Positions 3,101 through 23,042 are shown, counted from the stretch's first letter. The stretch: DNA of 24,000 bases from Hominenteromicrobium mulieris (GCF_020687165.1 NZ_JAJEQC010000005.1); one strand, 5' to 3'. The notes: a model not told the origin generated them from the sequence alone. Numbers and translations: made by a program.

Positions 3101-3196
3101 AAGCTACCCGTGCAGAGTGAGAAGGCCCATTACCGTTTGGTGATGGGCTTTTGTAATGCAGAGCGCCGGTCACAATCCCGGTGGGGCACTGCAAAT
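3101..3196. repeat. Direct repeat copy 1 (~96 nt) flanking the accessory cassette
   Basis: Hand alignment to 6290..6384 gives 8 substitutions and 1 single-base indel. The core GTGCAGAGTGAGAAGGCCCATTACCGTTTGGTGATGGGCTTTTGTAATGCAGAGCGCCGGTCACAATCCCGGTGGGGC is nearly identical in both copies. Confidence 0.9.
3125..3152 (+). terminator. Rho-independent terminator after the adhesin gene, lying inside repeat copy 1
   Basis: Stem GCCCATTACC / GGTGATGGGC (one G-U pair), loop GTTT, followed by TTTT. Confidence 0.7.
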
Positions 3197-6291: not shown

Positions 6292-6384
6292 CCTGCCTGT
6301 GCAGAGTGAGAAAGCTCATTACCGTTTGGTGATGGGCTTTTGTAATGCAGAGCGCTGGTCACAATCCCGGCGGGGCCTGTAAAT
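6290..6384. repeat. Direct repeat copy 2 (~95 nt) flanking the accessory cassette
   Basis: It aligns to 3101..3196 (see copy 1) and starts at the last bases of the stop codon of the 5596..6291 gene. Confidence 0.9.
6314..6341 (+). terminator. Rho-independent terminator inside repeat copy 2, after the membrane-protein gene
   Basis: Stem GCTCATTACC / GGTGATGGGC (two G-U pairs), loop GTTT, followed by TTTT. Confidence 0.65.
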
Positions 6385-10657: not shown

Positions 10658-10939
10658 TCCACTTTTTCGCAAAACGCAGTGAAAAACTGCGGGAAACCTT
10701 CTCCTTAATCAGCAAATTTCTGTGTCTGCCGGACATGTTTTTGCGTGCGGCGGCGCAAAATTTTGGGCGAACTCCGTTCGTTTTTTTGCTATCAGCAAAA
10801 AAGATTTGCGGCGGAAGCCGCCCGGGCAAACAGAAAAAGCGCGAAACGCACTTTTTCTGTTTGCTTTCGCAAGCATACCATTCTTACGTAAGAATGGTAG
10901 ATCGGTGAAAATCACCGATTTTTTAGGGACACCCTAAAA
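10647..10939. promoter_or_regulatory. Candidate origin of transfer (oriT) and mob promoter region: a noncoding segment packed with inverted repeats
   Basis: At least eight hairpin-forming inverted repeats sit directly upstream of mobC and the relaxase gene:
- 10647..10670
- 10675..10691
- 10739..10760
- 10782..10802
- 10808..10821
- 10826..10864 (14-bp stem plus an inner 3 bp)
- 10876..10899 (perfect 24-bp palindrome)
- 10901..10919 followed by a T-run, and 10921..10939. Confidence 0.6.
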
Positions 10940-10945
10940 CCCGTC

Positions 10946-11395
10946 ATGCAGAAAGAAGTGAGACAAATAAGAAAAGGCGAATACAAATACCCTTACCGTT
11001 TAGAGTTGCGCTTAAATGAAACACAAATGGCACGTCTGCAATCCTTGGCGAGCAAATCCGGCTTATCGATGTCGGCGTATGTGCGGCAGCTTATCGACGG
11101 TGTGCTTCCGCAGGAACGCCCGCCGTTGGATTTTTATAAGATGCTGACAGAGCTGCGTTATATTGGCAACAACATGAACCAGCTTACACGCATAGCACAT
11201 GCGACCGGCAGAATCGACAGAGAGAAATTTGAGCGGCTGACCGATGAGATCAAGCCGCTGGCATCTATGCTGTATCGCTACGTTACGGAGCCAATCAAAC
11301 GCGACCCGATGACTTCGGAGCTTGGGACGTATATCCGTAAGTCCGACCAAAAGGCACTGAAAGAAAAACGGGAGGAAGAACGAAAGTGGCGGTAA
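10946..11395 (+). CDS. mobC: MobC-family relaxosome accessory protein (ribbon-helix-helix)
   Basis: LRLNETQMARLQSLASKSGLSMSAYVRQLI is RHH-like. LRYIGNNMNQLTRIAHATG matches the MobC motif (L..iG.NlNQiar). It overlaps the relaxase start by 10 nt. Confidence 0.85.
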   Translation: MQKEVRQIRKGEYKYPYRLELRLNETQMARLQSLASKSGLSMSAYVRQLIDGVLPQERPPLDFYKMLTELRYIGNNMNQLTRIAHATGRIDREKFERLTDEIKPLASMLYRYVTEPIKRDPMTSELGTYIRKSDQKALKEKREEERKWR

Positions 11396-11824
11396 CAAAA
11401 ATCTGGAAGATCAACGGCTGGATCGGCGACTGCCTGCTTTACATCGAAAATCCGAACAAGACGCAGAACCCGTTGGTGATCGGTGATCCGAAATTAAAAG
11501 AGGAAGAATACCAATCTCTGACGGATGTGATCGAGTATGCGGAAGACGGCAACAAAACCGTGCGGGATACTGAGCGTTTTGTGTCCGGCGTTAACTGCGA
11601 TGCAGAAACGGCGCGGCAGGAAATGATTTTAGCAAAAAATGCGTTCGACAAAAACGACGGCATTTGTGCCTACCACGCCATACAGAGCTTTGCGCCGGGA
11701 GAGGTCACGCCGGAAACGGCGCACGAGATCGGTATTCGGCTCGCAAAAGAAATGTGGGGTGAACGGTATCAAGTGCTTGTTGCAACGCATTTAGATCATG
11801 AGCATATCCACAACCACTTCGTTA
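11386..11824 (+). CDS. Relaxase (MobA/VirD2 family), exon 1
   Basis: GTG start. The N-terminus MAVTKIWKI... and the histidine motif VATHLDHEHIHNHFV are typical of relaxase/mobilisation nuclease domains. The coding sequence is broken after 11824 by GTGCG, the group II intron 5' end. The residues translated from 11825 to 11874 are read-through into the intron. Confidence 0.85.
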
Positions 11825-12379
11825 GTGCGCCCATAAGGGGCAGAGTAAATCCGCTTAGCAAGCGGCAGGTGTGAGGTTTCAGGCCTGTGGTCAACGGCTA
11901 ACCTGGCGGGGAAACCCAAAGGGGACAGCAGCATGACCGTAAAGCTGCAAGTTGGCAAGTTGCCGTGCCACGACTGAGCAGCAAGACCAAAAGTTCATAT
12001 AAGGATGAAACCTAAACTGGCTGAACGGCAGTCCGAGGGACATTTGTGGTGGTCGTAACGGAAGGCAGCTATACCCGTTACGCTGTGCATCTCACCTGTA
12101 GAAACATGAGCAGGATGAGCGAAACCGAATGCACAGTCCGTATGTATCAGCATAAAAGGACGAAAACCGCATCCGACAATGAACAATGCTTTTTTACTCT
12201 GCTGCTAAATGGGGATTGCCTAAGTTGGAACGCTCACAAGAGCTATGGGCGTAGGCCCTGAATATCCAATATGGCAACGGAGCCGCCGTAGTAGTCCGAG
12301 CGTATTAATGGCACGCACATGGCGAAGGGCGGCAGTTCATTCAATTCAATACAACAGAAAGGAAGGTGCGTGAGGCACT

Positions 12380-14197
12380 ATGAGAGATCCAGAAAATGTA
12401 TTGAACAGTCTGCAAGAACATTCAGCTCAATCCGGCTATGTCTATGACAGGTTGTACCGCAACCTGTTCAATCGGGAATTTTTCTTACGGGCATATCAGA
12501 ATATTTATGCCAGTCAGGGAAACATGACCGCAGGCACAGACGGAAAAACCATCGACGCAATGAGCCTTGAAAGAATCGACAGGCTTATTGCAACCCTGAA
12601 AGACGAATCCTACCAGCCCAAACCGTCCAGACGGACATATATCCCTAAGAAGAATGGAAAACTCCGTCCTCTGGGTATTCCGTCCATTGACGACAAGCTG
12701 GTACAGGAAGTTGTCCGTATGCTGTTGGAATCCATCTATGAGAACAGCTTTGAGGACGCCTCCCATGGCTTTCGGCCTGACAGAAGTTGTCACACAGCTT
12801 TGAGGATGATTCAAAATCGCTTTACCAGATGCAAGTGGTTTGTTGAGGGTGACATTAAAGGATTCTTCGACAATATTGACCACAATGTCATGATTGGCAT
12901 CCTTCGCAAGAGAATTAAAGATGAGCGTTTTCTGCGCCTTATCCGTAAATTTCTCAACGCAGGATATATGGAAGATAACCAACTGCATCAAAGCTACAGC
13001 GGCACTCCGCAGGGCGGCATCATTAGTCCCATTCTAGCCAATATCTATCTCGACCAGTTCGACAAATATATGGCTGAATACAAGAAACGGTTTGACCGTG
13101 GGAACAAGCGAGCCGTCAATGTGGAATACCATAAGCTGAGCGCAAAGAGAATCCGACTCAAAAGGAAGCTGGCAAAGGCACAGTCTGAGGAAGAAAAGCA
13201 ATCCCTTTTGGAAAGCATCCGGGAACTGGATAAGGTACACAAATCCATCCCCTGCAAAAATCCAATGGATACAAATTTCCGCAGACTGCAATACGTCCGT
13301 TACGCTGACGATTTTCTTATCGGTATCATCGGAGCCAAAGAGGATGCACAGGCTGTTAAGCAGGAAATCGGCGTATATATCGCCGAACAGTTGAAACTGG
13401 AACTGTCGGAAGAAAAGACGCTGGTCACTAAAGCAACAGACCGTGCAAAATTCTTGGGATTTGACATCAGGGTCACACCGCAGAGCAATCACACCAAAAA
13501 GACAAAAAGCGGTTCCACAGCCCGAAACTACAGCGGCCATGTAATGCTGGAAGTTCCGACTTCTGTCATTCAAAAAAAGCTGCTGGAACTGGGAGCCATG
13601 AGAATTGATGTTCGCAATGGAACAGAGATTTGGCAACCCACGTATCGTGGAAAACTTGTCGGACGAACAGACCTGAGTATCCTAGACCAGTACAATGGTG
13701 AGGTGCGGGGATTCTGTAATTATTATGCGATTGCAAACAATCGCTCTAAGCTGCACAAGTTCCGCTATATCATGGAGTACAGTTTCTATAAAACCTTGGC
13801 CTGTAAATACCGTACAACCAAAGGCAAAATTATTGCTCAATATCGTATTGTCAAGGACATCGGGGTAAAATTCCAGGACAAGCATGGAAATGAGCGCATC
13901 CGACTACTGTGGAAGGACAGTCTTGCAAGAGACCCCTATCCGCTGGGAAAAGAAGCAGATATTATCCATAAGCCGAAAGGCATCCTGAAAAAGCCCAGTC
14001 TCGGCGCACGATTAAAAGCAAATCGGTGTGAATGGTGCGGAAAAGAAACTTCAGCGTTGGTAATGCACCAAGTTAGAACGCTGAAAGAGCTGGATGAAAG
14101 CCAACCGTGGGCAGTTTTCATGAAGAGGATTAACCGAAAAACTTTGGTGGTCTGTGAAAGTTGTCACACGAAAATTCACGGTGCAGGCTGTGAATGA
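12380..14197 (+). CDS. ltrA: Group II intron reverse transcriptase/maturase with a C-terminal HNH endonuclease domain (605 aa)
   Basis: RT motifs TDGKTID, RPLGIPSIDDKLVQE, GTPQGGIISPILANIYL and YVRYADDFLIG are present. A maturase/X region follows (RGFCNYYAIANN). The C-terminus is a zinc/HNH module (CEWCGKE...HQV...VVCESCHTKIHG). Confidence 0.95.
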   Translation: MRDPENVLNSLQEHSAQSGYVYDRLYRNLFNREFFLRAYQNIYASQGNMTAGTDGKTIDAMSLERIDRLIATLKDESYQPKPSRRTYIPKKNGKLRPLGIPSIDDKLVQEVVRMLLESIYENSFEDASHGFRPDRSCHTALRMIQNRFTRCKWFVEGDIKGFFDNIDHNVMIGILRKRIKDERFLRLIRKFLNAGYMEDNQLHQSYSGTPQGGIISPILANIYLDQFDKYMAEYKKRFDRGNKRAVNVEYHKLSAKRIRLKRKLAKAQSEEEKQSLLESIRELDKVHKSIPCKNPMDTNFRRLQYVRYADDFLIGIIGAKEDAQAVKQEIGVYIAEQLKLELSEEKTLVTKATDRAKFLGFDIRVTPQSNHTKKTKSGSTARNYSGHVMLEVPTSVIQKKLLELGAMRIDVRNGTEIWQPTYRGKLVGRTDLSILDQYNGEVRGFCNYYAIANNRSKLHKFRYIMEYSFYKTLACKYRTTKGKIIAQYRIVKDIGVKFQDKHGNERIRLLWKDSLARDPYPLGKEADIIHKPKGILKKPSLGARLKANRCEWCGKETSALVMHQVRTLKELDESQPWAVFMKRINRKTLVVCESCHTKIHGAGCE

Positions 14198-14202
14198 ATA
14201 GA

Positions 14203-14236
14203 GAGCCGGATACAGCGAGAGTTGTAAGTCCGGTTC
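14203..14236 (+). ncRNA. Group II intron domain V (catalytic hairpin)
   Basis: GAGCCGGATACAGCGAGAGTTGTAAGTCCGGTTC is a 34-nt hairpin with the conserved AGC triad context, a GNRA-like loop region and the CGGTTC 3' arm, placed just after the IEP stop codon as expected. Confidence 0.85.
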
Positions 14237-14297
14237 GGGGGCGAGTGCCTGGAAACCTACCGCAGCAATGCGGCAAGGCGCTGGGTACTTAGCCTAC

Positions 14298-15343
14298 TCA
14301 ACTCGGTTTCGTTTCTGGACGGCAAACGCTTATGGAAAGAGAAAAACTATTGGCAAATGAGAACGGTTTCGGATGCACTTTGCAGAGAGTATGGTTTATC
14401 ACTTATCAAGCCGGTGCGCCGAGGTATGCCGTATGCAGCTTGGCAGGCAGAAAAAGAAGGAAAGCCGAACCGGCGTAAAGCGCTACGCGAAGACATAGAC
14501 CGCATACTCGCAAATGAAAATATAGAATCGCTCGAAGCTTTTTACGATACGCTGCGGGCGTACGGGTATGCCGTTATGACGGATCGAAAGTATGTTGCGA
14601 TTTGTCCGCCGGGCGGTGAACGAAATATTCGTTTGCAGTCGCTTGGAGAAAACTACGAGCCGGAAGCGCTGCACTTGCGCATTCTCCGTATCAAAGCAGA
14701 CCGACTGCTCGGTAAAACCAAAGTTATAGAACAGCCGATGACGCCCAAAAGGAAAATGCGCTTGCAAGGAACGGTACGTCGAAAATCTAAAGCGCATGGA
14801 ATACGGGCGCTTTATTATAAATGGCTTTATTATCTCGGTGTTTTTAAGCGGCGTCCCAAAGTATACGGCAGCGCGTTTGCCACGGCGCGTTGGCAACTGA
14901 ACGCATACATAAAGCAGTTCGATTATGTTGCGGCGCACAATATTAAAACGCGCGATGACGTAGAGCAACGGTTACGCGTAGTGCAGCACGAAATCTCCGG
15001 GCAGATTGATGAGCGGGAAGAAATAAGAGCAGTGCTGCGGCGTTTGGAGACAGGCGATGCTGAAATACAGGAGCAGCTTGAGAAAATCGAGAAGATCAAC
15101 GCACAACTCAAAAAGCTGCGGACAGAAGCAAAGCTGTGTGTGCAAATCCTCGAGCAGCAGCCGCAGATCAAATCCAAGATCGACAAAGCACATGAAGTAA
15201 AAACATTTGAAACAGAAAGGGGAAAAGAAAATGGACGAACAAGCGATCATCACCTTGAGCATCGAAGGAACGAAGCTGCTCCTACGCGGGAGCAAAGAAG
15301 TTCTGGCAGCGCTCGTAGCAGCGATCCGATACAGCGCAGATAA
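14298..15343 (+). CDS. Relaxase, exon 2
   Basis: Joining the A at 11824 to the TC at 14298 gives ...HIHNHFV-I-NSVSFLDGKRLWKEKNYWQMRTVSDALCREYGLS..., a typical relaxase continuation. 439 + 1046 = 1485 nt, which is 495 codons including the stop. The frame matches the track ORF 14357..15343. Confidence 0.85.
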
Positions 15344-16139
15344 AATGATCCCGGCGCGAAAATGCCGGGATTTTTTGACGAGTACATCGGAGGTGCGCTT
15401 TATCTCGATGAGCGATGAAGCCATCGAAACATTCAAAAAGGCTGCACGACCCTATGGCTTGCGGTACTTGCATTTGCACGACAGTAACGGAGATGGGTTA
15501 TCGACCTTAATGGTGCGCGGCGAAGATGCAGCAGTTATCAACCGCCTGATCGAGCGCAATAAACTGGCTGTGCTGACGGATGTTACACAGGCGGAAATCG
15601 AACGTGATCCGTCTAAGGCTGCGGACATCAACGAACCGATTCCGGAGGTTGTGATTGGAAAAGATCAAGTTCGAGTGCAGGATGCGGTTAAAGAGGCACG
15701 CGGCAGCGCACAAGACCTTTTAAAGCCGGAGCCAAACCCTACGAAAGGGCAGACGGAACAGAAAAGCCGTCTGTCCTCCAAAGGCTTGAAGACATCCGAA
15801 ATGGAACAAGAGGCTGAAGAACTTTGGGCAGATGTTACGGCGTCTATTGATAAGGACTTTGCAGAGCGAATCGAAGAAAAGCGTCAGCACAATTTTGAAC
15901 TTTATAACCAAGACGACCCGCTGCTCGGCGAGAAGGTTGTGAAAACCAAACGTACCGTGCCGGTACAGGACAAGCCATCTGTTATGAAAAAGCTGGAGGC
16001 TGCAAAAAACGTCAACACGCAAAAAGAAGCGAGAATTGCGGAAGCTGTGCGCCAGATGCAGGCAGGTGGACGTACTTCAAATACCGATAAGGTCATTCAG
16101 AAGACGCCGAAGGTGAAGCCGCAAAAGCTGAGAAGGTAG
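15231..16139 (+). CDS. pcfB: PcfB / DUF3801-family conjugation protein
   Basis: MDEQAIITLSIEGTKLLLRGSKEVLAALVAAI...FISMSDEAIETFKKAARPYGLRYLHL...TLMVRGEDAAVINRLIE matches the DUF3801 pattern as I remember it. The ATG at 15231 follows a GAAAGGGGAAAAG Shine-Dalgarno sequence. The gene overlaps the relaxase 3' end. Confidence 0.7.
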   Translation: MDEQAIITLSIEGTKLLLRGSKEVLAALVAAIRYSADKMIPARKCRDFLTSTSEVRFISMSDEAIETFKKAARPYGLRYLHLHDSNGDGLSTLMVRGEDAAVINRLIERNKLAVLTDVTQAEIERDPSKAADINEPIPEVVIGKDQVRVQDAVKEARGSAQDLLKPEPNPTKGQTEQKSRLSSKGLKTSEMEQEAEELWADVTASIDKDFAERIEEKRQHNFELYNQDDPLLGEKVVKTKRTVPVQDKPSVMKKLEAAKNVNTQKEARIAEAVRQMQAGGRTSNTDKVIQKTPKVKPQKLRR

Positions 16140-16140
16140 G

Positions 16141-17112
16141 ATGGTGTGTATGGCAATATCAAAAGAAGACATAAAACCTTTGGCTTGGTCGGCGGAGGAT
16201 GAACCAATGTTCCTTAAGGACGACGAAAATAAAGACGGAAAAAGCGGCAATGTTGCCGGTTCTGCGGATACGATTTTACGCACACGTCGCATTTTCAAAA
16301 TGAAGAAGAATTCCGGCGGCAGAAAAAAACAATCATGGAAAGCGCTGAATACACGTTGGCTAATGGCGCGGGATGAGATGTTCGTCAACGAGCGTTTCTT
16401 GGAGAAAGTGTTGCAGGTTATGGGACGTATGCGGTTTGGTGTCAAAAACTCAATGCTGATCGCATTGCAGAATGAGAAGGCAACACGTATTGCAACGGCT
16501 GCATCATGGCGCGGCTTAGGCGTGCAGCTTCTGCCGGGTGCAGAGGCAAAACCGATATGGTTGGATGCAGGAGCAGACACGCAGCGAAAAACCATAGTAC
16601 CGAGCAAATGGTATGACATTACGCAGACAGATGCCGGAGAAAAACTGACGCTGAAAGGTACGATCTATAACACGCTTGCCATTTGCAGGATCACTCTAAA
16701 TCAGATCGACGAGCTGAAAATCGTAGAACAACAAGGTGTGACGGGCATCCACTATGACCGTGAAGTACATGCGTATCTTGTGCAGCCGGGGCAGATGGAA
16801 AGAGCTATGCTTTGCTACGCCGCGCTTGAAGCATTGGCCGAAAAAGATTTTGCGCTGGTTTTTCAGGAGAATGAGAAAACAGCGCTGCCGGATACACCGG
16901 CAAATGAGATCATTGCAAAATGTGCAGCGTATATTGTATGCGTACATTTTGGCGTTTTGCCGCAGGAAGTGTGTGTGCGCGTCCCGACGGCGCTCGGCAC
17001 AGATAAAATTGAAAATCTGCTGCGGGCGTTATCCACAGCGCAGAGCATCGCAGCACAAGAAATTATGGTGATCGAAAATCGACTTCGGTCAAAGAAATGG
17101 AGGACAATATGA
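16141..17112 (+). CDS. Hypothetical protein with an ArdC-N-like (ssDNA-binding) segment and no protease domain
   Basis: FGVKNSMLIALQNEKATRIATAASWRGLGVQLLPGAEAKPIWLD aligns position by position with YSVRNQMLIYKQNPYAMFTAGYNQFEKMGYTVQKGEKGMRIWVP in the 6720 protein (shared pattern V.N.MLI..QN..A....A.......G.....G.....IW). The likely start is the ATG at 16150, after AAGGTAGGA. Confidence 0.55.
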   Translation: MVCMAISKEDIKPLAWSAEDEPMFLKDDENKDGKSGNVAGSADTILRTRRIFKMKKNSGGRKKQSWKALNTRWLMARDEMFVNERFLEKVLQVMGRMRFGVKNSMLIALQNEKATRIATAASWRGLGVQLLPGAEAKPIWLDAGADTQRKTIVPSKWYDITQTDAGEKLTLKGTIYNTLAICRITLNQIDELKIVEQQGVTGIHYDREVHAYLVQPGQMERAMLCYAALEALAEKDFALVFQENEKTALPDTPANEIIAKCAAYIVCVHFGVLPQEVCVRVPTALGTDKIENLLRALSTAQSIAAQEIMVIENRLRSKKWRTI

Positions 17113-17282
17113 TGAAAAATGAAAAAGAATTAGCGGCAAGAGGTTGCTTGTGTGTGGAACCGAGTTCACCGGAATGCAGCGTACCTTATATCGTTACAGA
17201 CCCCAAAGGCGAGTTGCGGCATTATGAGGAAAAAATAAAGGAAAACGGTTATAAAATAATTGTGAGCGAGTTCAAAAGATGA
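17109..17282 (+). CDS. Short ORF (57 aa) encoding a coupling-protein-derived fragment, probably a remnant
   Basis: PECSVPYIVTDPKGELRHYEEKIKENGYKIIV parallels LQCNSSYIIMDPKGELLRDIGNVFKAEGYKIRV in the full-length T4CP immediately downstream. There is no TM region or Walker A. A GGAGG Shine-Dalgarno sequence lies at 17099..17103, and ATGA overlaps occur at both ends (17109..17112 and 17279..17282). Confidence 0.45.
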   Translation: MMKNEKELAARGCLCVEPSSPECSVPYIVTDPKGELRHYEEKIKENGYKIIVSEFKR

Positions 17283-19072
17283 GAGGAAAAAATACATTAA
17301 CGGCTTGGATCATGGCAGGCATCGGGGCGGTATTTGTGCTTTGGCTTGCGGTGCTGATCGCGCCGTATGCAGAGGGCGGCTTGCCCGGGATTTTGCTGAA
17401 CATGAATGAGATCACTGCACATCCGTTTCGGTTGGAACTCTGTGCCGACACAGGAAAAGCCGTGGGCATATTTCTGGGCGGTTATGCGTTAGTGCTTTTA
17501 TACATATTTAGCTCACAGAAGAATTTTCGCCACGGCGAGGAACACGGTTCGGCAAAATGGGAGAATGTGTATCTACTGAACCACCGGCTCCACGACAAAG
17601 AACACCCGGATGAAAACCGCATCTTATCCAGACATTTGAGCATCACAACGGATCAGCGCAAGTTAGATAAAAACCTATTTACGCTTGTTATCGGCGGCTC
17701 CGGCTCGCGCAAAACACGAGCGTACGTAAAACCCAATTTACTGCAATGTAACTCATCTTATATCATCATGGACCCGAAAGGGGAGCTGCTCCGCGATATT
17801 GGCAATGTATTTAAGGCAGAGGGTTACAAAATCCGTGTCTTTGACCTTATTGATATGCTCAGCAGTTTTCGGTATAACCCATTCGTCTATTTTAAACGGG
17901 AAAGCGACATACAAGGCTTTATCACGAACTTATTTGCAAATACCGAGGATAAAACGAAACATGGTGGTGATGCCTTTTGGGACAAGACGGCGAAAATGAT
18001 GCTTTCGGCGCTCATGTATTACGTGTGGTATGAATGCCCGGAGACGGAAATGAATTTCGGAACAGTTATGGAGCTGATCCTTGCCGAGACCGTCGAAGAA
18101 GGCGATGAAGCCGGTATCTCTGCGACACAGGTGCTCATTGAGGAACTGCGTGCCAGAAGCCCGAGGCATATAGCGGTGCGCTACTTTGATGCTTACCGTA
18201 AGGGTGCAGGGGAGACGATCATGAGTATTCAGGAATCGCTTCTCAGCCGCTTGGAAAAGTTTTTGCTTGAAGACGTGGTAAACCTAACGACCGGTGATGA
18301 ATTGGAACTCGAAAAGATTGGCGAAGAAAAAACGGCGCTGTTTATCCGTATGCCGGACGACAACAGTTTCCATTTTCTGGCATCGGCGCTCATCACACAG
18401 CTTTTTCAGCTTATGATGGCACAGGCAGATGCACGCAGCACCGGCAGCTTACCCGTGCCGGTGCATTTTGTGCTCGAGGAAGCGCGAAATATTACGTTGC
18501 CGGACAGCTTCCAAAACTGGGTTGCGACGATGCGTTCGCGCAACATCACATTATCGATTATTCTGCAAAATATATCGCAGATCAAGCGTATGTTCCCGGA
18601 CGACTGGGAGTCCGTGTCCGGCATGTGCGATGAGATACTATATCTCGGCGGCAACGAGCAGAGCACACACGAATGGATTTCCAAAGCGATGGGACAGGAA
18701 ACGATCGATAACCGTAGCTACGGTACAACGCATAGTTGGACGAGCGGCAGCAACAGCACCAATGAGCAAAACAGTGGCCGCGCTTTGATGGATGTAACAG
18801 AGGTACGTCTAAAAAACAAGCTGCTGAAAGGCAAAATTGGCAGCGTAATTATGATCTTAGCCGATGAGCGGCCGATAATCGACGAAAAATACGACCTGAA
18901 CCGGCATCCGAGAATTAAGCTTTCGGCCGACGGCGGTGCGCCGCAGTATTCTTATGTTTCGTCAGCGCTTTTGCCGGAAACGAACACAATACAGATCAAC
19001 GAAACAGACGTTGATGAAGACGAGGTGGACGGTATGTTTACCTTTGACCTTCAAAATGTCGAACTAAATTAA
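17279..19072 (+). CDS. virD4: Type IV coupling protein (VirD4/TraG family)
   Basis: Two N-terminal TM helices (AWIMAGIGAVFVLWLAVLIAPY, GIFLGGYALVLLYIF). Walker A-like VIGGSGSRKT, then the DPKGEL motif, Walker B-like VHFVLEEARN, and SIILQNISQ (the SxxxQ motif typical of TraG/VirD4). Confidence 0.88.
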   Translation: MRGKNTLTAWIMAGIGAVFVLWLAVLIAPYAEGGLPGILLNMNEITAHPFRLELCADTGKAVGIFLGGYALVLLYIFSSQKNFRHGEEHGSAKWENVYLLNHRLHDKEHPDENRILSRHLSITTDQRKLDKNLFTLVIGGSGSRKTRAYVKPNLLQCNSSYIIMDPKGELLRDIGNVFKAEGYKIRVFDLIDMLSSFRYNPFVYFKRESDIQGFITNLFANTEDKTKHGGDAFWDKTAKMMLSALMYYVWYECPETEMNFGTVMELILAETVEEGDEAGISATQVLIEELRARSPRHIAVRYFDAYRKGAGETIMSIQESLLSRLEKFLLEDVVNLTTGDELELEKIGEEKTALFIRMPDDNSFHFLASALITQLFQLMMAQADARSTGSLPVPVHFVLEEARNITLPDSFQNWVATMRSRNITLSIILQNISQIKRMFPDDWESVSGMCDEILYLGGNEQSTHEWISKAMGQETIDNRSYGTTHSWTSGSNSTNEQNSGRALMDVTEVRLKNKLLKGKIGSVIMILADERPIIDEKYDLNRHPRIKLSADGGAPQYSYVSSALLPETNTIQINETDVDEDEVDGMFTFDLQNVELN

Positions 19073-19085
19073 AGGAGCGATTCAC

Positions 19086-19415
19086 ATGAGAAAGTTTAAT
19101 TTGAACCGAGTGGGAAAATACGCACGGTACGCATACTTTGCGATGGCAAGCGCAACGCTGCTTGCTATCCCCTGCTTTGCAAGCACCGGTGTGGCAGAGA
19201 TTGACACACCGATTAACAATTTGCTGACGATGTTTTTCGGGTTGCTGAAAGTAGTAGGTATATTTGTAGGCTTATTTGGTCTTGTGCAAATCGTCATGGC
19301 AGGATTTAGCCACGATTCTACGAAGCGCATTATAGGTGTTACGTGTATTATCGGTGGATTTACCCTTTGCTTCGCACAGCAGATTCTGACGTTCCTCGGT
19401 ATGACAACAGCATAA
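19086..19415 (+). CDS. Maff2-family small membrane protein (pilin-like topology)
   Basis: A signal-peptide-like N-terminus (ATLLAIPCFAST) is followed by two hydrophobic helices flanking AGFSHDSTKR. This matches my recollection of Maff2 proteins, which are encoded next to VirD4 in clostridial elements. Confidence 0.6.
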   Translation: MRKFNLNRVGKYARYAYFAMASATLLAIPCFASTGVAEIDTPINNLLTMFFGLLKVVGIFVGLFGLVQIVMAGFSHDSTKRIIGVTCIIGGFTLCFAQQILTFLGMTTA

Positions 19416-19431
19416 AAGGGAGTGAACTGCT

Positions 19432-20250
19432 TTGTATGAACTTGTGCTGCAATTTTTAACACAAATATTCGGCTTGATGTACTCGGTGCTGACGGAAGAT
19501 CTCTCAGATTTTAGCCCGCACGCATACGAGTATATTTCAATTCTGAATACGATATTGAAAGGGTTTGCATCATCACTGATGCTTGTTGCATTTTGCGTAG
19601 GGTACATACAATCCGCCGTGTCGCTGATCGAGCAAAAAACGCCGATTGCAATATTCAAAACCTTGGCGCGGCTCGTGATCGTCAATGCTCTGGTGGTACG
19701 CGGTACGGATATAATCCTCATGCCGATGTTCTCTGTTGTCCGCAGCTTAACAAGCCGCCTGATTGAGGCGATGGGCGGACAAGCCGGACTTCTTCCCAAT
19801 ATAGACGAAAGCTCACCGGGCGGTGTTGCCGGTGCGATAGGCGAGCTGCTGTCCATTAACATCCTGACCGGTATTTTATATATTGCGGTCATTATCAGCG
19901 GTCTGGTTTTGCTGCTGACGGTGTTCGGGCGTTTTCTCAAAGTCTATGTCTATATGTCGATAGCGCCGGTTCCGTTGGCGTTTTTTGCCGGTGGAAATGT
20001 AACCGCCATGTATGGCCGCAACTATATAAAAAACGTGTTCGGCGTTTGCATGGAAGCCGTTACGATGGTAATCGCCATACAGCTGTTTTGCGCGATAGCG
20101 GATGATGCTGTGATGACACAGGTAGGCGGGATGTTGGGCTTTCTGGGTACGATGGCGAAACCGGTCATGCTGCTTCTGTACTTGTCGTCTCTCAGCGCCA
20201 TTATAAAAGGTGCCGACAACATGACGCATAAGCTGTTGGGATTTGTGTAA
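19432..20250 (+). CDS. VirB6/TrbL-like polytopic membrane protein of the T4SS
   Basis: TTG start 9 nt after AAAGGGAG. It has five or more hydrophobic helices. Its size and its position between Maff2 and PrgI/VirB4 are as in clostridial T4SS modules. Confidence 0.6.
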   Translation: MYELVLQFLTQIFGLMYSVLTEDLSDFSPHAYEYISILNTILKGFASSLMLVAFCVGYIQSAVSLIEQKTPIAIFKTLARLVIVNALVVRGTDIILMPMFSVVRSLTSRLIEAMGGQAGLLPNIDESSPGGVAGAIGELLSINILTGILYIAVIISGLVLLLTVFGRFLKVYVYMSIAPVPLAFFAGGNVTAMYGRNYIKNVFGVCMEAVTMVIAIQLFCAIADDAVMTQVGGMLGFLGTMAKPVMLLLYLSSLSAIIKGADNMTHKLLGFV

Positions 20251-20269
20251 GGAAGGAGCGAAAAGAGTT

Positions 20270-20761
20270 ATGCAAATCAAAGTAAACCAAGAAATACGAG
20301 ATATTAAAGATGAGTTCCTATCCGGTTTATCTGTGCGTCAGACTATTTGGAGTGCTGCAGCGCTATGTGCGGGCTTTATCACTTTTTGGAATGTATATAC
20401 GCGTTTCGGCAGTACCGATATGGCATCGTTCCTTACGTTATGCGCAAGTGCACCGTTGGCCTTGATAGGCTTTTTTAAGTGGCATAAAATGCCCGCCGAA
20501 CGTGTGGCGTTATGCTGGCTGCATGCGCTCTTGATGCCTCGCAGGCTTGTTTTTAAGGGCAGCAATATACACGCAAATGAGATTGAACAGCTTTGCACAG
20601 CCGCACGTGCGGTCGAGCTGAATGAAATGAAGAACAGAAGGGAGAAAGGCAAAGATGCTTTGGAAAAAGACCTTGAGGGGCGCGGAGCAGTATCAACAGG
20701 GAAGCATGAAAATTCCGCGCAGCACGCAGGAGATGATCCCGGTCAAGCACATTCTGAATGA
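20270..20761 (+). CDS. prgI: PrgI-family (VirB3-like) membrane protein
   Basis: MQIKVNQEIRDIKDEFLSGLSVRQTIWSAAALCAGFITFW...APLALIGFFKWHKMPAERV matches the PrgI pattern (kdk...GLt.RQ, two TM helices, then G.p.E). The ATG at 20270 follows AAGGAAGGAG. The 3' end overlaps virB4. Confidence 0.7.
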   Translation: MQIKVNQEIRDIKDEFLSGLSVRQTIWSAAALCAGFITFWNVYTRFGSTDMASFLTLCASAPLALIGFFKWHKMPAERVALCWLHALLMPRRLVFKGSNIHANEIEQLCTAARAVELNEMKNRREKGKDALEKDLEGRGAVSTGKHENSAQHAGDDPGQAHSE

Positions 20762-23042
20762 TGGTACATTCGTACTTGACAGCGGAGAATATTCCAAAAT
20801 GTTTGCGTTTACGGACATCAACTACACGGAGCTGCGCGATGAAGAAAAGATGCGTCGGCTTGTGGATTATTCAGCACTGCTCAATTCTATCGATAAAGGC
20901 ATTTACGCGAAGATCAGTATTTTCTTTCGACCGATACGGCAGGAGCAGTTCGAGCGCGATGTGTTGATCCCGATGAACCCGGAAGATGAGTTGGATGATT
21001 ATCGGGAGAATATGAATACCGTACTGCGGGAACAGGTGCGCGGTACGCTCGGCATGACGAAGCAGGCGTATCTGACGATAACAGCAGGACGAAGAAATGA
21101 TGAAGATGCCGCAGCGTTTTTTGCTCGCGTGGAGGGAAACTTAATCAGCAGTTTTCAGGCGCTCGGCGTGGAGCTGCGTGCTGTGCCTTTGTCTGAACGT
21201 CTGCGTTTGCTACACGATATTTACCGGCCGGGTTTAGAGGAAACTTTCCGATATGATGCTCACGCAGAAAAAAAGCTCGGCATGAACTGGAAAGACAGCA
21301 TTGCACCGCTCAGTGCGGAAGCTCTCAATTCCTGTACGCATTTGAAGATCGGCGGCCGATACTGCAAAACGCTGTTCCTGAATGCCTATCCGATATATCT
21401 CAACGACCGCATTGTTTCGGATATTGCCTCTATCGGCAAGCCGATGATCTTTACAATCGATTTTCTGCCGATACCGAGCGCCGAAGCGATGGCGGAGGCG
21501 GAAAGCCGCAGTATGGCAATCGATACGAAAATCGTAAACTATACGCTGCACCAACAGCGCAACGGCAATTACAGCGGCAGCGTGCCGTATAAGCTGATGC
21601 AGCGTGCGGCAGGAGTACAGGAAGTCATGGAGGCTATACAGGAGCGCGACCAAAACTTATACCTTGTTACCGTCACCGTAGCACATTTTGCCGATACGCG
21701 GGAAGAACTGGAAAACGATGCTGAAAGCATCATGAGCAAAGGAAAATCCATTTCCTGCCAGTTTCTTCCGCTCCTTGCCCAGCAGTACGAGGGGCTGAAT
21801 ACGGCATTGCCTTTTGGGCGTCCGTTTATTCAGGCGGATCGATTGCTAACAACGCAGGCGCTTGCCGGTATTTGCCCGTTTGCAGCGCAGGAAATCTATT
21901 ATCCGGGCGGCTCGTGGTTCGGTATTAACGCAAAGACGAAACGTCTCATTACCATAAACCGCGATATGCTGATGAGCGGCAACAGCCTTGTGTTGGCGAC
22001 GACCGGCGGCGGTAAGTCGTTCCACATCAAGGAGGACGCTTTGCAGGTCGCACTGAAAGGGGAGGCAGACATATTTTTCGTTGACCCGGAGTGTGAGTAT
22101 GTTGTGGCGACACAAAGGCTTGGCGGAACGGTGATCTCCTTATCTCCGTCTACACCGCACAGGATCAATCCGCTTGAGATCAGTGCCGACCCCGATGACC
22201 GCAGCAGCGAACCGTTGAAAGAAAAGCTTGAATTTGTCATGTCTTTTTGCCGTATCTTGCTTATGGAAGATGGCAACGTGCTTGACGGCAAAATGAAAAG
22301 CCTTTTGGATCGTTGTGTGCGAAAGCTGTATGCACCGGTCGTGGCATCCGGTTATACAAAGCCGTCGCCGCTGCTTGGTGATCTGTACCGTATGCTGAAA
22401 GAGCAGGACGCACCGGAAGCACAGGAACTGGCGCTGCGCATGGAAATTTATACTGCGGGTTCTTACGATATGTTTGCGCAGTCTACGAACGTCGATACAC
22501 AGGCGCATATCATCGACTATGACCTTTCAAAGCTTGGTGAGGGTATGAACGCGGTCGGTATGCTCATTGTCCTTGAATCGATTTACAGCCGCCTAATGGA
22601 CAACTGGCGGAAAAAGAGGCACACGTACATTTATATCGATGAGATCATGACGATTTTTCGTAACCCATACGCGGCACAGTATTTTGCATCGCTTTGGCAG
22701 CGCATCCGCAAGCGCGGCGGTTATATCATCGGTGCGACCCAGAACACAACGGAAATACTAAACAGCCCGGAGGCACGTAAACTGCTTGAAAACAGCTACA
22801 TTATCACGATGCTGTACCAGTCTGCACCGGACAGAGACGTACTTGCGGAAATGTTTAGCCTGTCTGAGGCGCAGAAGCAGGCGCTTGCCAAGGAGCAGTA
22901 CGGCACAGGACTCATCAAGGTCGGCAGCACGATTGTGCCGTTTGAAAACGATTTCCCGACCGATAATCCCTTGTATCAGCTGATGTCCACAAAGCCGTCT
23001 GACGGATGGGGGCAAGAAGTAAATGAACATTACGACGTATGA
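20655..23042 (+). CDS. virB4: VirB4-family conjugal transfer ATPase (795 aa)
   Basis: AAGGGAGAAAGG Shine-Dalgarno sequence. The N-terminus STQEMIPVKHILNDGTFVL is typical of Gram-positive VirB4 proteins. Walker A is LATTGGGKSF and Walker B is TYIYIDEIMT, followed by GATQN. Confidence 0.9.
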   Translation: MLWKKTLRGAEQYQQGSMKIPRSTQEMIPVKHILNDGTFVLDSGEYSKMFAFTDINYTELRDEEKMRRLVDYSALLNSIDKGIYAKISIFFRPIRQEQFERDVLIPMNPEDELDDYRENMNTVLREQVRGTLGMTKQAYLTITAGRRNDEDAAAFFARVEGNLISSFQALGVELRAVPLSERLRLLHDIYRPGLEETFRYDAHAEKKLGMNWKDSIAPLSAEALNSCTHLKIGGRYCKTLFLNAYPIYLNDRIVSDIASIGKPMIFTIDFLPIPSAEAMAEAESRSMAIDTKIVNYTLHQQRNGNYSGSVPYKLMQRAAGVQEVMEAIQERDQNLYLVTVTVAHFADTREELENDAESIMSKGKSISCQFLPLLAQQYEGLNTALPFGRPFIQADRLLTTQALAGICPFAAQEIYYPGGSWFGINAKTKRLITINRDMLMSGNSLVLATTGGGKSFHIKEDALQVALKGEADIFFVDPECEYVVATQRLGGTVISLSPSTPHRINPLEISADPDDRSSEPLKEKLEFVMSFCRILLMEDGNVLDGKMKSLLDRCVRKLYAPVVASGYTKPSPLLGDLYRMLKEQDAPEAQELALRMEIYTAGSYDMFAQSTNVDTQAHIIDYDLSKLGEGMNAVGMLIVLESIYSRLMDNWRKKRHTYIYIDEIMTIFRNPYAAQYFASLWQRIRKRGGYIIGATQNTTEILNSPEARKLLENSYIITMLYQSAPDRDVLAEMFSLSEAQKQALAKEQYGTGLIKVGSTIVPFENDFPTDNPLYQLMSTKPSDGWGQEVNEHYDV

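What the first reader, a model, noticed from the sequence alone, without database searches (positions are those of the whole stretch)
11386..15343. Complete, apparently mobile group II intron splits the relaxase gene inside its catalytic histidine motif
Excising 11825..14297 (GTGCG...CCTAC) joins ...HLDHEHIHNHFV to INSVSFLDGKR... in frame (439 + 1046 nt = 495 codons). Without splicing, translation ends 16 codons into the intron, so an active relaxase, and hence transfer, should depend on splicing. The intron keeps RT, maturase and HNH domains and a canonical domain V.

As I recall, the lactococcal Ll.LtrB intron sits in the homologous HIHN/HII codons of the ltrB relaxase. This insertion point is about 10 nt further downstream in the same motif. 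That suggests either independent targeting of the same conserved DNA or a related lineage with shifted exon-binding sites.

Candidate EBS1 complements to the exon end TTCGTTA are TAACGG (12056..12061) and AGCGAA (12118..12123). I cannot decide between them without folding.
Basis: partly seen in the sequence, partly recalled or inferred. Interest (0 to 1): 0.6.

Follow-up and report, generated by a model that had tools for sequence, protein, structure and literature searches.

The report
Mobile intron splitting a relaxase gene
A complete self-splicing mobile (group II) intron interrupts the DNA-nicking relaxase gene of a gut-bacterial conjugative element just after its catalytic histidines, so the element can only make its transfer enzyme after RNA splicing; it is a clean new example, at a slightly shifted site, of the well-known Ll.LtrB arrangement.

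Summary
Confirmed. Window 11825-14297 is a 2,473-nt group II intron: GTGCG start, Rfam domain V/VI, and an intact 605-aa RT-maturase-HNH protein. It splits a PF03432 relaxase gene. Removing it joins exons into 495 codons. At least 18 intron-less contigs carry exactly the 11824|14298 junction.

The intron has Ll.LtrB-like (IIA) architecture. Its EBS2 and EBS1 loops align with those of a lactococcal Ll.LtrB-family intron, but it sits 10 nt further downstream (HIHNHFV|IN versus HLHN|H).

It belongs to a clade of at least 20 introns (66-91% nt identity). All occupy this same codon position in relaxases only 27-54% identical to each other, so the clade homes to this motif.

TAACGG lies in a covarying helix and AGCGAA is invariant. 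EBS2 is GTGGT (12046-12050) and EBS1 is ACATGA (12104-12109). This EBS1 pairs with only 4 of 6 exon bases here, so this is a non-cognate site.

Kinship with Ll.LtrB versus convergence is unresolved.

The scan has noted the same kind of thing (introns in catalytic motifs of mobile-element genes) on other DNA, but not this site. Verdict: new member of a known kind.

The parts
10946..11395 (+). MobC/NikA-like relaxosome accessory gene. Its end overlaps the relaxase start (context).
   Evidence: Pfam NikA-like 2.8e-14 and MobC 1.7e-5.
11386..11824 (+). Relaxase exon 1: 146 codons plus 1 nt. It encodes PF03432 profile positions 1-100, including HLDHEHIHNH.
   Evidence: Pfam Relaxase 1.7e-29. The boundary is set by empty-site contigs.
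11813..11817 (+). IBS2 (ACCAC, exon positions -12 to -8; the Asn-His codons).
   Evidence: Pairs with EBS2 in 94 of 95 cells over 19 introns. Compensatory changes are seen in L015 and L016.
11819..11824 (+). IBS1 (TCGTTA, exon positions -6 to -1).
   Evidence: Only 4 of 6 positions pair with this intron's EBS1. Positions -1 and -2 are mismatched.
11825..14297 (+). Group II intron, 2,473 nt, IIA-type architecture, Ll.LtrB/LtrA-like lineage.
12046..12050 (+). EBS2 (GTGGT).
   Evidence: Complementarity scan. It aligns with EBS2 ATGTG of the pSK11P Ll.LtrB-family intron.
12054..12082 (+). Covarying hairpin next to EBS2 (CGTAACGG pairs with CCGTTACG).
   Evidence: RNAalifold on 19 introns: 6 of the 7 predicted pairs show compensatory changes.
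12091..12119 (+). EBS1 hairpin. The loop is 12100-12109, delta is A12103, and EBS1 is ACATGA at 12104-12109.
   Evidence: Folds. The register is fixed by L004 and L018 (6/6 pairs) and by compensatory changes in L006 and L009. It aligns with EBS1 GTTGTG of pSK11P.
12380..14197 (+). Intron-encoded protein, 605 aa: RT, maturase (X) and HNH endonuclease domains.
   Evidence: Pfam. LtrA (PDB 5g2x) matches at E = 8e-147 over the full length. YADD and two CxxC pairs are present, and dN/dS is 0.05-0.06 against relatives.
14203..14236 (+). Domain V (34 nt, with AGC at its base).
   Evidence: Rfam RF00029 alignment.
14291..14291 (+). Predicted branch-point A, bulged in domain VI, the 7th nucleotide from the 3' end.
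   Evidence: Rfam RF00029 alignment. This is an inference from the model's structure line.
14298..15343 (+). Relaxase exon 2: 2 nt plus 348 codons including the stop. T14298 is delta'.
   Evidence: PF03432 positions 99-132 lie at its start. The junction is confirmed by intron-less alleles.

Best explanation
Window 11825-14297 is a full-length, ORF-containing group II intron with Ll.LtrB-like (IIA) RNA architecture and an LtrA-like RT-maturase-endonuclease protein. It sits in the MOBP-type relaxase gene of a conjugative element in a gut Clostridia genome.

Transcription of the mobC-relaxase operon gives a pre-mRNA. Ribosomes reading that pre-mRNA stop 16 codons into the intron. With help from its own maturase, the intron excises as a lariat and ligates the exons to restore the 494-aa relaxase. 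Relaxase supply, and hence transfer of the element, should therefore depend on splicing.

The excised RNA-protein particle recognises intron-less relaxase genes in two ways. It base-pairs through EBS2 (GUGGU with the Asn-His codons), EBS1 and delta. The protein is inferred to contact the flanking DNA. The particle then re-inserts 10 nt downstream of the classical Ll.LtrB position.

Shown here: the anatomy, the exact empty site, the clade-wide use of this site, and purifying selection on the protein. Inferred: splicing and retrohoming of this particular copy, and the dependence of transfer on splicing.
For: - Boundaries and frame restoration.
- Domain V/VI at 57.5 bits.
- Intact IEP domains and motifs.
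- LtrA is the best PDB match over the full length (E = 8e-147).
- The exact empty site occurs in at least 18 contigs. The intact homologue P0003 reads HNHFVINSVSF with PF03432 1-132.
- Twenty related introns sit at the same codon position. The 16 with readable flanks are in relaxases only 27-54% identical to this one, while intron nt identity is 66-91%.
- These introns form one clade (SH-aLRT 100).
- IEP dN/dS is 0.05-0.06.
- EBS2 and EBS1 lie at positions homologous to those of the pSK11P Ll.LtrB-family intron.
- The Ll.LtrB site HIHN-H / HLHN-H is documented in PMC5072309 and seen in pSK11P.
- An intron 99.96-100% identical occurs in contigs whose adjacent exon 2 differs by 4-7%.
Against:
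- EBS1 ACAUGA pairs with only 4 of 6 IBS1 bases here. The mismatches are at -1 and -2, next to the splice site, so splicing may be inefficient.
- The intron is single-copy in its genome.
- At least seven other relaxase genes in that genome carry the same motif unoccupied. Three of them have the same predicted pairing as the occupied site.
- The identical intron in diverged backbones could come from homologous recombination rather than homing.
Confidence: 0.85

Rival explanations
1. The intron is real but is stranded at a non-cognate site. Poor EBS1-IBS1 pairing at -1 and -2 makes splicing rare or inaccurate. The relaxase gene is then effectively silenced and this copy of the element is largely immobile. 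On this reading the intron acts as a brake or an inactivating insertion, not a neutral passenger.
For: - Pairing is 4/6, with both mismatches next to the 5' splice site, whereas relatives at cognate sites show 6/6 (L004, L013, L018).
- The intron is single-copy despite equally good vacant sites in the same genome.
- Deletion derivatives that lack oriT, mobC and relaxase exon 1 recur in several samples, so loss of transfer function is tolerated.
- Ll.LtrB is known to restrain relaxase expression (PMC6003770; abstract only).
Against: - Other clade members also sit at 4/6 sites (L007, L010, L015), so such sites are commonly occupied.
- The same 100%-identical intron lies in at least three exon-2 variants of the element across many samples.
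- The IEP, domain V and domain VI are all intact.
Confidence: 0.2
2. Evolutionary rival A: the clade at the +10 site and Ll.LtrB descend from one relaxase-homing ancestor. The 10-nt shift arose by change of the EBS1/EBS2 loops and of the protein's DNA contacts.
For: - Both have the same IIA architecture with EBS loops at homologous positions.
- The constrained tree with LtrA plus the +10 clade is not rejected and is marginally better (AU p = 0.53).
- Both target the same motif of PF03432 relaxases.
Against: - LtrA is only 43.8% identical to this IEP. Clades that target DUF3852, tyrosine integrase and DUF4134 genes are 53-59% identical to it.
- The free tree gives no support for sisterhood, and LtrA sits on a long branch.
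Confidence: 0.4
3. Evolutionary rival B: convergence. Within a large LtrA-like family, each clade homes to one conserved motif of a conjugation gene. On this reading, two clades independently settled on the relaxase histidine motif because it is conserved and always carried by transferable DNA.
For: - In the tree, the named target genes each map largely to one clade: relaxase, DUF3852 and DUF4134 need 1 change each, integrase needs 2.
- Targets are all conjugation or integration genes.
- The nearest relatives of the +10 clade by identity are not relaxase-homing.
Against: The branching order at the base is unresolved.
Confidence: 0.45
4. The presence of one identical intron in diverged versions of the element reflects homologous recombination between elements (exon-2 cassette exchange), not recent retrohoming.
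For: - The divergent patch starts at variable distances from the intron (+26, about +155, about +283). In L084, L085 and L087 it ends again near or within about 0.3 kb of the gene's end.
- The upstream flank is 99-100% identical in L084, L087 and L088.
- Chimeric relaxase genes made by recombination at identical introns are described for lactococci (PMC7947834).
Against: - L083 and L086 carry the intron on a downstream backbone that matches the intron-less L002 type.
- Across the clade the intron clearly moved between unrelated relaxases.
Confidence: 0.4

Closest known systems
Ll.LtrB (Lactococcus lactis pRS01 / sex factor, in ltrB) and its near-twin Ef.PcfG (Enterococcus faecalis, in pcfG)
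   Same: - Both are IIA-type ribozymes with GUGCG 5' ends.
- EBS2 and EBS1 loops lie at homologous positions.
- The RT-X-HNH protein resembles LtrA over its full length.
- The host gene is a PF03432 (IncP/MOBP-type) relaxase of a Gram-positive conjugative element, preceded by mobC.
- The insertion is in the catalytic histidine motif, so relaxase synthesis needs splicing (PMC7947834, PMC5072309).
   Different: - The site is 10 nt downstream (HIHNHFV|IN versus HIHN|H). It falls in codon phase 1 instead of between codons, and all three His codons are in exon 1.
- The IEP is only 43.8% identical to LtrA and the 5' ribozyme region about 48%.
- The EBS sequences differ: GUGGU / ACAUGA here against AUGUG / GUUGUG.
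- Hosts are gut Clostridia and Peptoniphilaceae, not lactic acid bacteria.
- This copy sits at a site with only 4/6 EBS1 pairing.
Other LtrA-like group II introns in conjugation genes (for example the pAW63 / Bacillus cereus-group introns, PMC1196294; Bacteroidetes CTn introns)
   Same: They belong to the same broad IEP family at 47-59% identity. They show the same habit of sitting in conserved motifs of genes on transferable elements.
   Different: They target other genes: DUF3852, the tyrosine integrase ...TTQIYA| motif, DUF4134, the TraG P-loop, YWFCY and an SNF2 gene.
Chimeric relaxase genes generated at identical introns (LaRoche-Johnston et al. 2020, PMC7947834)
   Same: Here too exon 1 and the intron are 99-100% identical between contigs, while exon 2 belongs to different sequence types.
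   Different: The switch points lie 26-283 nt inside exon 2 rather than demonstrably within the intron. No RNA-level trans-splicing evidence is available.

Membership tests
Group II intron (catalytic RNA) | Domain V/VI with the catalytic AGC helix and a bulged branch-point A close to the 3' end | tested here: met
   RF00029 matches 14201-14297 at 57.5 bits against a gathering score of 40, covering model positions 1-77. The bulged A is at 14291.
Group II intron (catalytic RNA) | Consensus boundaries: 5' GUGYG and 3' AY | tested here: met
   GTGCG at 11825 and ...CCTAC ending at 14297. Both are fixed independently by empty-site contigs.
Group II intron (catalytic RNA) | Exon-binding sites that pair with the 5' exon and covary with it | tested here: met
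   EBS2-IBS2 pairs in 94/95 cells, with compensatory changes. The EBS1 register is supported by 6/6 pairing in L004, L013 and L018 and by compensatory changes in L006 and L009. In this copy EBS1 pairs at only 4/6.
Group II intron (catalytic RNA) | Self-splicing / lariat formation | not testable with these tools
Mobile group II intron (retroelement) | Intron-encoded protein in domain IV with RT (YADD), maturase X and En (HNH) domains, all intact | tested here: met
   Pfam RVT_1, Intron_maturas2 and AI2M-like HNH. YADD at 308, CxxC at 550 and 592, no stops. Full-length alignment to LtrA.
Mobile group II intron (retroelement) | Occupied and empty versions of the same site; related copies at homologous sites in unrelated genes | tested here: met
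   Empty sites. Twenty relatives at the same codon position, in relaxases 27-54% identical where flanks could be read.
Ll.LtrB family / IIA (mitochondrial-like) class | LtrA-like IEP and IIA-type domain I, with EBS2, EBS1 and delta placed as in Ll.LtrB | tested here: met
   LtrA is the best PDB hit. The EBS loops align with those of the pSK11P intron. The delta-delta' A-U pair is present. No curated class reference set was available, so the class label rests on this comparison.
Ll.LtrB family / IIA (mitochondrial-like) class | Same homing site as Ll.LtrB (between the Asn and His codons of HxHN|H) | tested here: not met
   The site is 10 nt downstream. It works like Ll.LtrB but is not an Ll.LtrB variant: the IEP is only 43.8% identical.
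MobA/VirD2-like (PF03432, MOBP-type) relaxase as host gene | A complete nuclease domain with the HxD...HxH motif is restored after intron removal | tested here: met
   Exon 1 covers profile 1-100 and exon 2 covers 99-132. The intact homologue P0003 covers 1-132 at 139.9 bits.

The most novel reading that the evidence does not exclude
A widespread clade of gut Clostridia introns reached the relaxase histidine motif independently of Ll.LtrB. It tolerates poor EBS1 pairing: EBS2 on the invariant Asn-His codons, plus protein contacts, would do most of the targeting. One intron lineage can therefore invade relaxases that are only about 30-40% identical. Once in place, the intron serves as portable homology that shuffles relaxase exon-2 cassettes between conjugative elements. 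The shared deletion breakpoint 17-20 nt upstream of the homing site in two independent derivatives would then mark an intron- or relaxase-linked fragile point.
Probability: 0.25. Interest if true: 0.55.

Novelty: new member of a known kind. Interest (0 to 1): 0.35.

Why it matters
Ll.LtrB in the ltrB relaxase is the textbook case of a retroelement riding on, and throttling, a conjugative element. This locus shows the same strategy in abundant human- and animal-gut Clostridia, carried by a distinct and well-populated intron clade that uses a neighbouring position in the same motif.

It gives three things:
- A natural series of intron-target pairs, with 4/6 to 6/6 EBS1 pairing, for studying how much base-pairing homing and splicing really need.
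- Candidate targetron scaffolds native to hard-to-engineer gut anaerobes.
- A practical annotation warning: intron-split relaxases are called as two ORFs (162 aa and 328 aa), so the element can be mis-scored as lacking an intact relaxase.

It does not reveal a new mechanism.

Tried and rejected
- Rfam D1-D4 class models gave nothing significant. RF01998 scored 16.5 bits, E = 7.5, so the class was set by comparison with a real Ll.LtrB-family intron instead.
- A blind complementarity scan for EBS1 did not beat shuffled exon assignments, because the U-rich IBS1 pairs with many segments. The register was fixed by homology, hairpin position and compensatory changes.
- Alternative registers for EBS1 in this copy's 10-nt loop were examined by eye and gave no better pairing than 4/6.
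- The best plasmid hit (E. faecalis pGTC3, H2) was checked as a possible Ef.PcfG, but it sits in an SNF2 gene, not a relaxase.
- Staddon et al. 2004 (PMC412114) is not held.
- The fusion contigs L092 and L093 were considered as intron retrotransposition followed by recombination. This was rejected because 17 nt of exon 1 remain and the left flanks do not match the EBS sequences.
- L092 and L093 were also considered as spliced-RNA products. This is not required, since intron-less DNA alleles with the same exon-2 haplotype exist.
- No second copy of the breakpoint sequence exists in the window.


Full report
**1. Observation**

The sequence is as described. Exon 1 ends ...CAC TTC GTT A at 11824. 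The intron begins GTGCGCCC at 11825 and ends ...TAGCCTAC at 14297. Exon 2 begins TC AAC TCG at 14298.

Joining 11386-11824 to 14298-15343 gives 1,485 nt, or 495 codons including the stop. The product reads ...ATHLDHEHIHNHFVINSVSFLDGKRLWKEK.... Without splicing, the frame runs 16 codons into the intron and stops (ORF 11386-11874, 162 aa).

Rfam places domains V and VI at 14201-14297: RF00029, 57.5 bits against a gathering score of 40, full model. Domain V is 14203-14236 and the bulged A of domain VI is 14291.

The 605-aa ORF at 12380-14197 has RVT_1, Intron_maturas2 and AI2M-like HNH domains. It carries YADD and two CxxC pairs.

**2. The boundaries are proven by empty sites**

A protein search with exon 2 found full-length, uninterrupted relaxases. 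The closest is P0003, a 494-aa cluster of 796 member sequences. It reads HLDHEHIHNHFVINSVSFLDGKR without a break and carries a complete PF03432 domain, profile 1-132 at 139.9 bits.

Its contig L002 aligns to window 10698-11824 and then straight on to 14298-21343 at about 95% identity.

An exact search for the 30-nt ligated junction in public metagenome contigs returned 16 further contigs. All have normal exon 1 and exon 2 on either side, and L094 is 100% identical over 980 nt of the upstream flank.

No base is repeated across either border, so the insertion point is unambiguous.

The window's exon 1 covers profile positions 1-100 and exon 2 covers 99-132. All three histidines of HxD...HxH are in exon 1, and the intron lies two codons plus one base after the last one.

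**3. What kind of intron**

The best solved-structure match of the intron protein is LtrA of Ll.LtrB, over its whole length (E = 8e-147). Other group II reverse transcriptases match only in the RT domain, at about 1e-44.

I fetched a real Ll.LtrB-family intron from Lactococcus cremoris SK11 plasmid 3, pSK11P. It is 2,492 nt long and sits at ...HLHN|HIVLN. That is the site PMC5072309 gives for the family ('HLHN-H and HIHN-H').

Here the site is HIHNHFV|IN, which is 10 nt further downstream and in codon phase 1.

The 5' 550 nt of the two introns align at about 48% identity. In that alignment the lactococcal EBS2 (ATGTG, intron position 223) and EBS1 (GTTGTG, position 279) fall on GTGGT (222-226) and ACATGA (280-285) of this intron. 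The two introns therefore share the IIA layout and differ in the guide sequences.

**4. Exon-binding sites**

Twenty related introns were recovered from reference genomes. For those with readable flanks I located the ends and the flanking exons.

EBS2 is GTGGT at window 12046-12050.
- It pairs with exon positions -12 to -8 (ACCAC, the Asn-His codons) in 94 of 95 cells across 19 introns.
- Compensatory changes occur in L015 and L016.

Six of its seven predicted pairs show double changes that keep the pair. It is not EBS1.

It is not EBS1 either.

EBS1 lies at the 3' side of the terminal loop of the hairpin 12091-12119.
- The register is fixed by L004 (AGAUGA with UCAUCU, 6/6), L013 (6/6 with two G-U wobbles) and L018 (6/6).
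- It is also fixed by compensatory changes at -4 (L006, L008) and at -1 and -2 (L009).
- The preceding A pairs with the invariant T at +1, which gives delta-delta'.

In the window, EBS1 is ACATGA (12104-12109). It pairs with only 4 of the 6 IBS1 bases (TCGTTA), with mismatches at -1 and -2. Three relatives (L007, L010, L015) are in the same situation.

So this copy sits at a near-cognate site, not a cognate one. Its EBS1 would fit an ...ATC ATG type site better.

**5. A homing clade**

All 20 closest relatives lie at the same codon position of a PF03432 relaxase: H-x-H-N-H-x-x|x-N, phase 1. Their IEPs are 66-95% identical to this one and their intron sequences 66-91.5%.

Where flanks were available, in-silico splicing gives an open frame through the junction in every case except the 3'-truncated L019.

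The host relaxases are only 27-54% identical to the window's relaxase. Examples:
- Merdimmobilis hominis: 41% relaxase identity, 91.5% intron identity.
- Blautia wexlerae: 31% relaxase identity, 90% intron identity.

That contrast is the classic signature of horizontal movement of the intron between genes.

The IEP is under strong purifying selection, with dN/dS 0.05-0.06.

In a tree of 72 related IEPs, the relaxase-site introns form one clade (SH-aLRT 100). The other clades largely map to one target gene each. Those targets are DUF3852, the ...TTQIYA| motif of Bacteroidetes tyrosine integrases, DUF4134, the TraG P-loop and YWFCY.

**6. Relation to Ll.LtrB**

LtrA is only 43.8% identical to this IEP. 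It is more distant than the clades with other targets, which are 53-59% identical. In the tree it is a long branch with no supported partner.

An AU test does not reject a tree that unites LtrA with the +10 clade (p = 0.53).

I lean slightly to convergence.

**7. This copy and its population**

The intron is single-copy in its 2.85-Mb genome. That genome holds at least seven other intact relaxase genes with the same motif unoccupied. Three of them have the same predicted pairing as the occupied site: EBS2 5/5, EBS1 4/6, delta paired. Activity in this host is therefore not evident.

On the other hand, the intron is 99.96-100% identical in seven metagenome contigs whose exon 2 differs from the window by 4-7%.
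- The divergence starts 26 to about 283 nt after the 3' splice site.
- L083 and L086 carry the intron on a downstream backbone that matches the intron-less L002 type.

This fits recent homing. It also fits exon-2 cassette exchange by recombination, which is described for lactococcal relaxases in PMC7947834. I cannot separate the two.

**8. Mechanism**

- Shown: complete ribozyme landmarks, an intact IEP, exact frame restoration, and site-specific occupancy across a clade.
- Inferred from the Ll.LtrB paradigm (PMC7947834, PMC5072309, PMC6003770, PMC7293003): maturase-assisted lariat splicing restores the relaxase mRNA. Relaxase level, and therefore conjugation, depends on splicing efficiency. 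The excised ribonucleoprotein retrohomes into intron-less relaxase alleles met after transfer.
- Weak point: EBS1 pairing at -1 and -2 is the main reason to doubt efficient splicing of this copy.

**9. Not done**

**10. Verdict**

The core interpretation is supported, the EBS1 proposals are refuted, and the true sites have been located. This is a new, well-populated member of a known kind. It is a useful comparative system but not a new mechanism.

Earlier notes of this scan describe the same kind of intron in other catalytic motifs on other DNA. None describes this site.

Noticed in passing
window 3111-3181 and 6300-6370 (+): Two near-identical type-P5 twister ribozymes (RF02684, 49 and 44 bits, both above the gathering score) lie about 3.2 kb apart on the same conjugative element. 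In L093 a 97-nt stretch matches the first copy at 93% identity.
   Followed up: no
L092 (SRR32733673) and L093 (ERR11504298); window 5948 / 10295 joined to 11806-11808: Two independent deletion derivatives of the element keep only the last 17-19 nt of relaxase exon 1 plus exon 2, with no intron. Each is fused in frame to a different upstream gene. They share the same right breakpoint, 17-20 nt upstream of the homing site, with TAT microhomology. The cause is unknown.
   Followed up: partly
L112-L117; window 8505/14432, 5888/14627, 7330/14813: Further deletion derivatives remove oriT, mobC, relaxase exon 1 and any intron. They recur in several samples and show 0-5 nt microhomology. L117 is 100% identical to the window on both sides. 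Only in-frame fusions to exon 2 could be seen, because they were found by a protein search.
   Followed up: partly
window 14298-15600 versus L083-L089, L002: Relaxase exon 2 (the C-terminal domain) is a mosaic hot spot. Contigs that are 99-100% identical upstream and in the intron differ by 4-7% in exon 2, and some return to about 100% identity downstream.
   Followed up: partly
L025-L047; L052, L056, L060-L063, L074-L075, L081-L082; L048-L050, L059; L057-L058; L068-L069, L073: Sister clades of this intron each home to one conserved motif of another conjugation or integration gene. These are DUF3852 (...AYFD|YRKHGQFEW), the Bacteroidetes tyrosine integrase just after the catalytic-Tyr motif (...TTQIYA|), DUF4134, the TraG P-loop ATPase and the YWFCY protein. 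Most of the insertions whose frame was checked are in codon phase 1, but L068 is in phase 2.
   Followed up: partly
own genome G000:C33:95399-96358 (outside the window): A second reverse-transcriptase gene (44% identical in the RT domain, 642-aa open frame) lies about 82 kb downstream on the same contig.
   Followed up: no
own genome: L118-L123, L125 and three more loci: This 2.85-Mb genome carries about ten additional PF03432 relaxase genes, so it hosts many conjugative or mobilisable elements.
   Followed up: partly
window 11386-11874 and 14357-15343: Gene callers split the interrupted relaxase into a 162-aa ORF and a 328-aa ORF. Clusters of the 328-aa product hold hundreds of database members. 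Intron-split relaxases are therefore probably under-counted in surveys of mobile elements.
   Followed up: no
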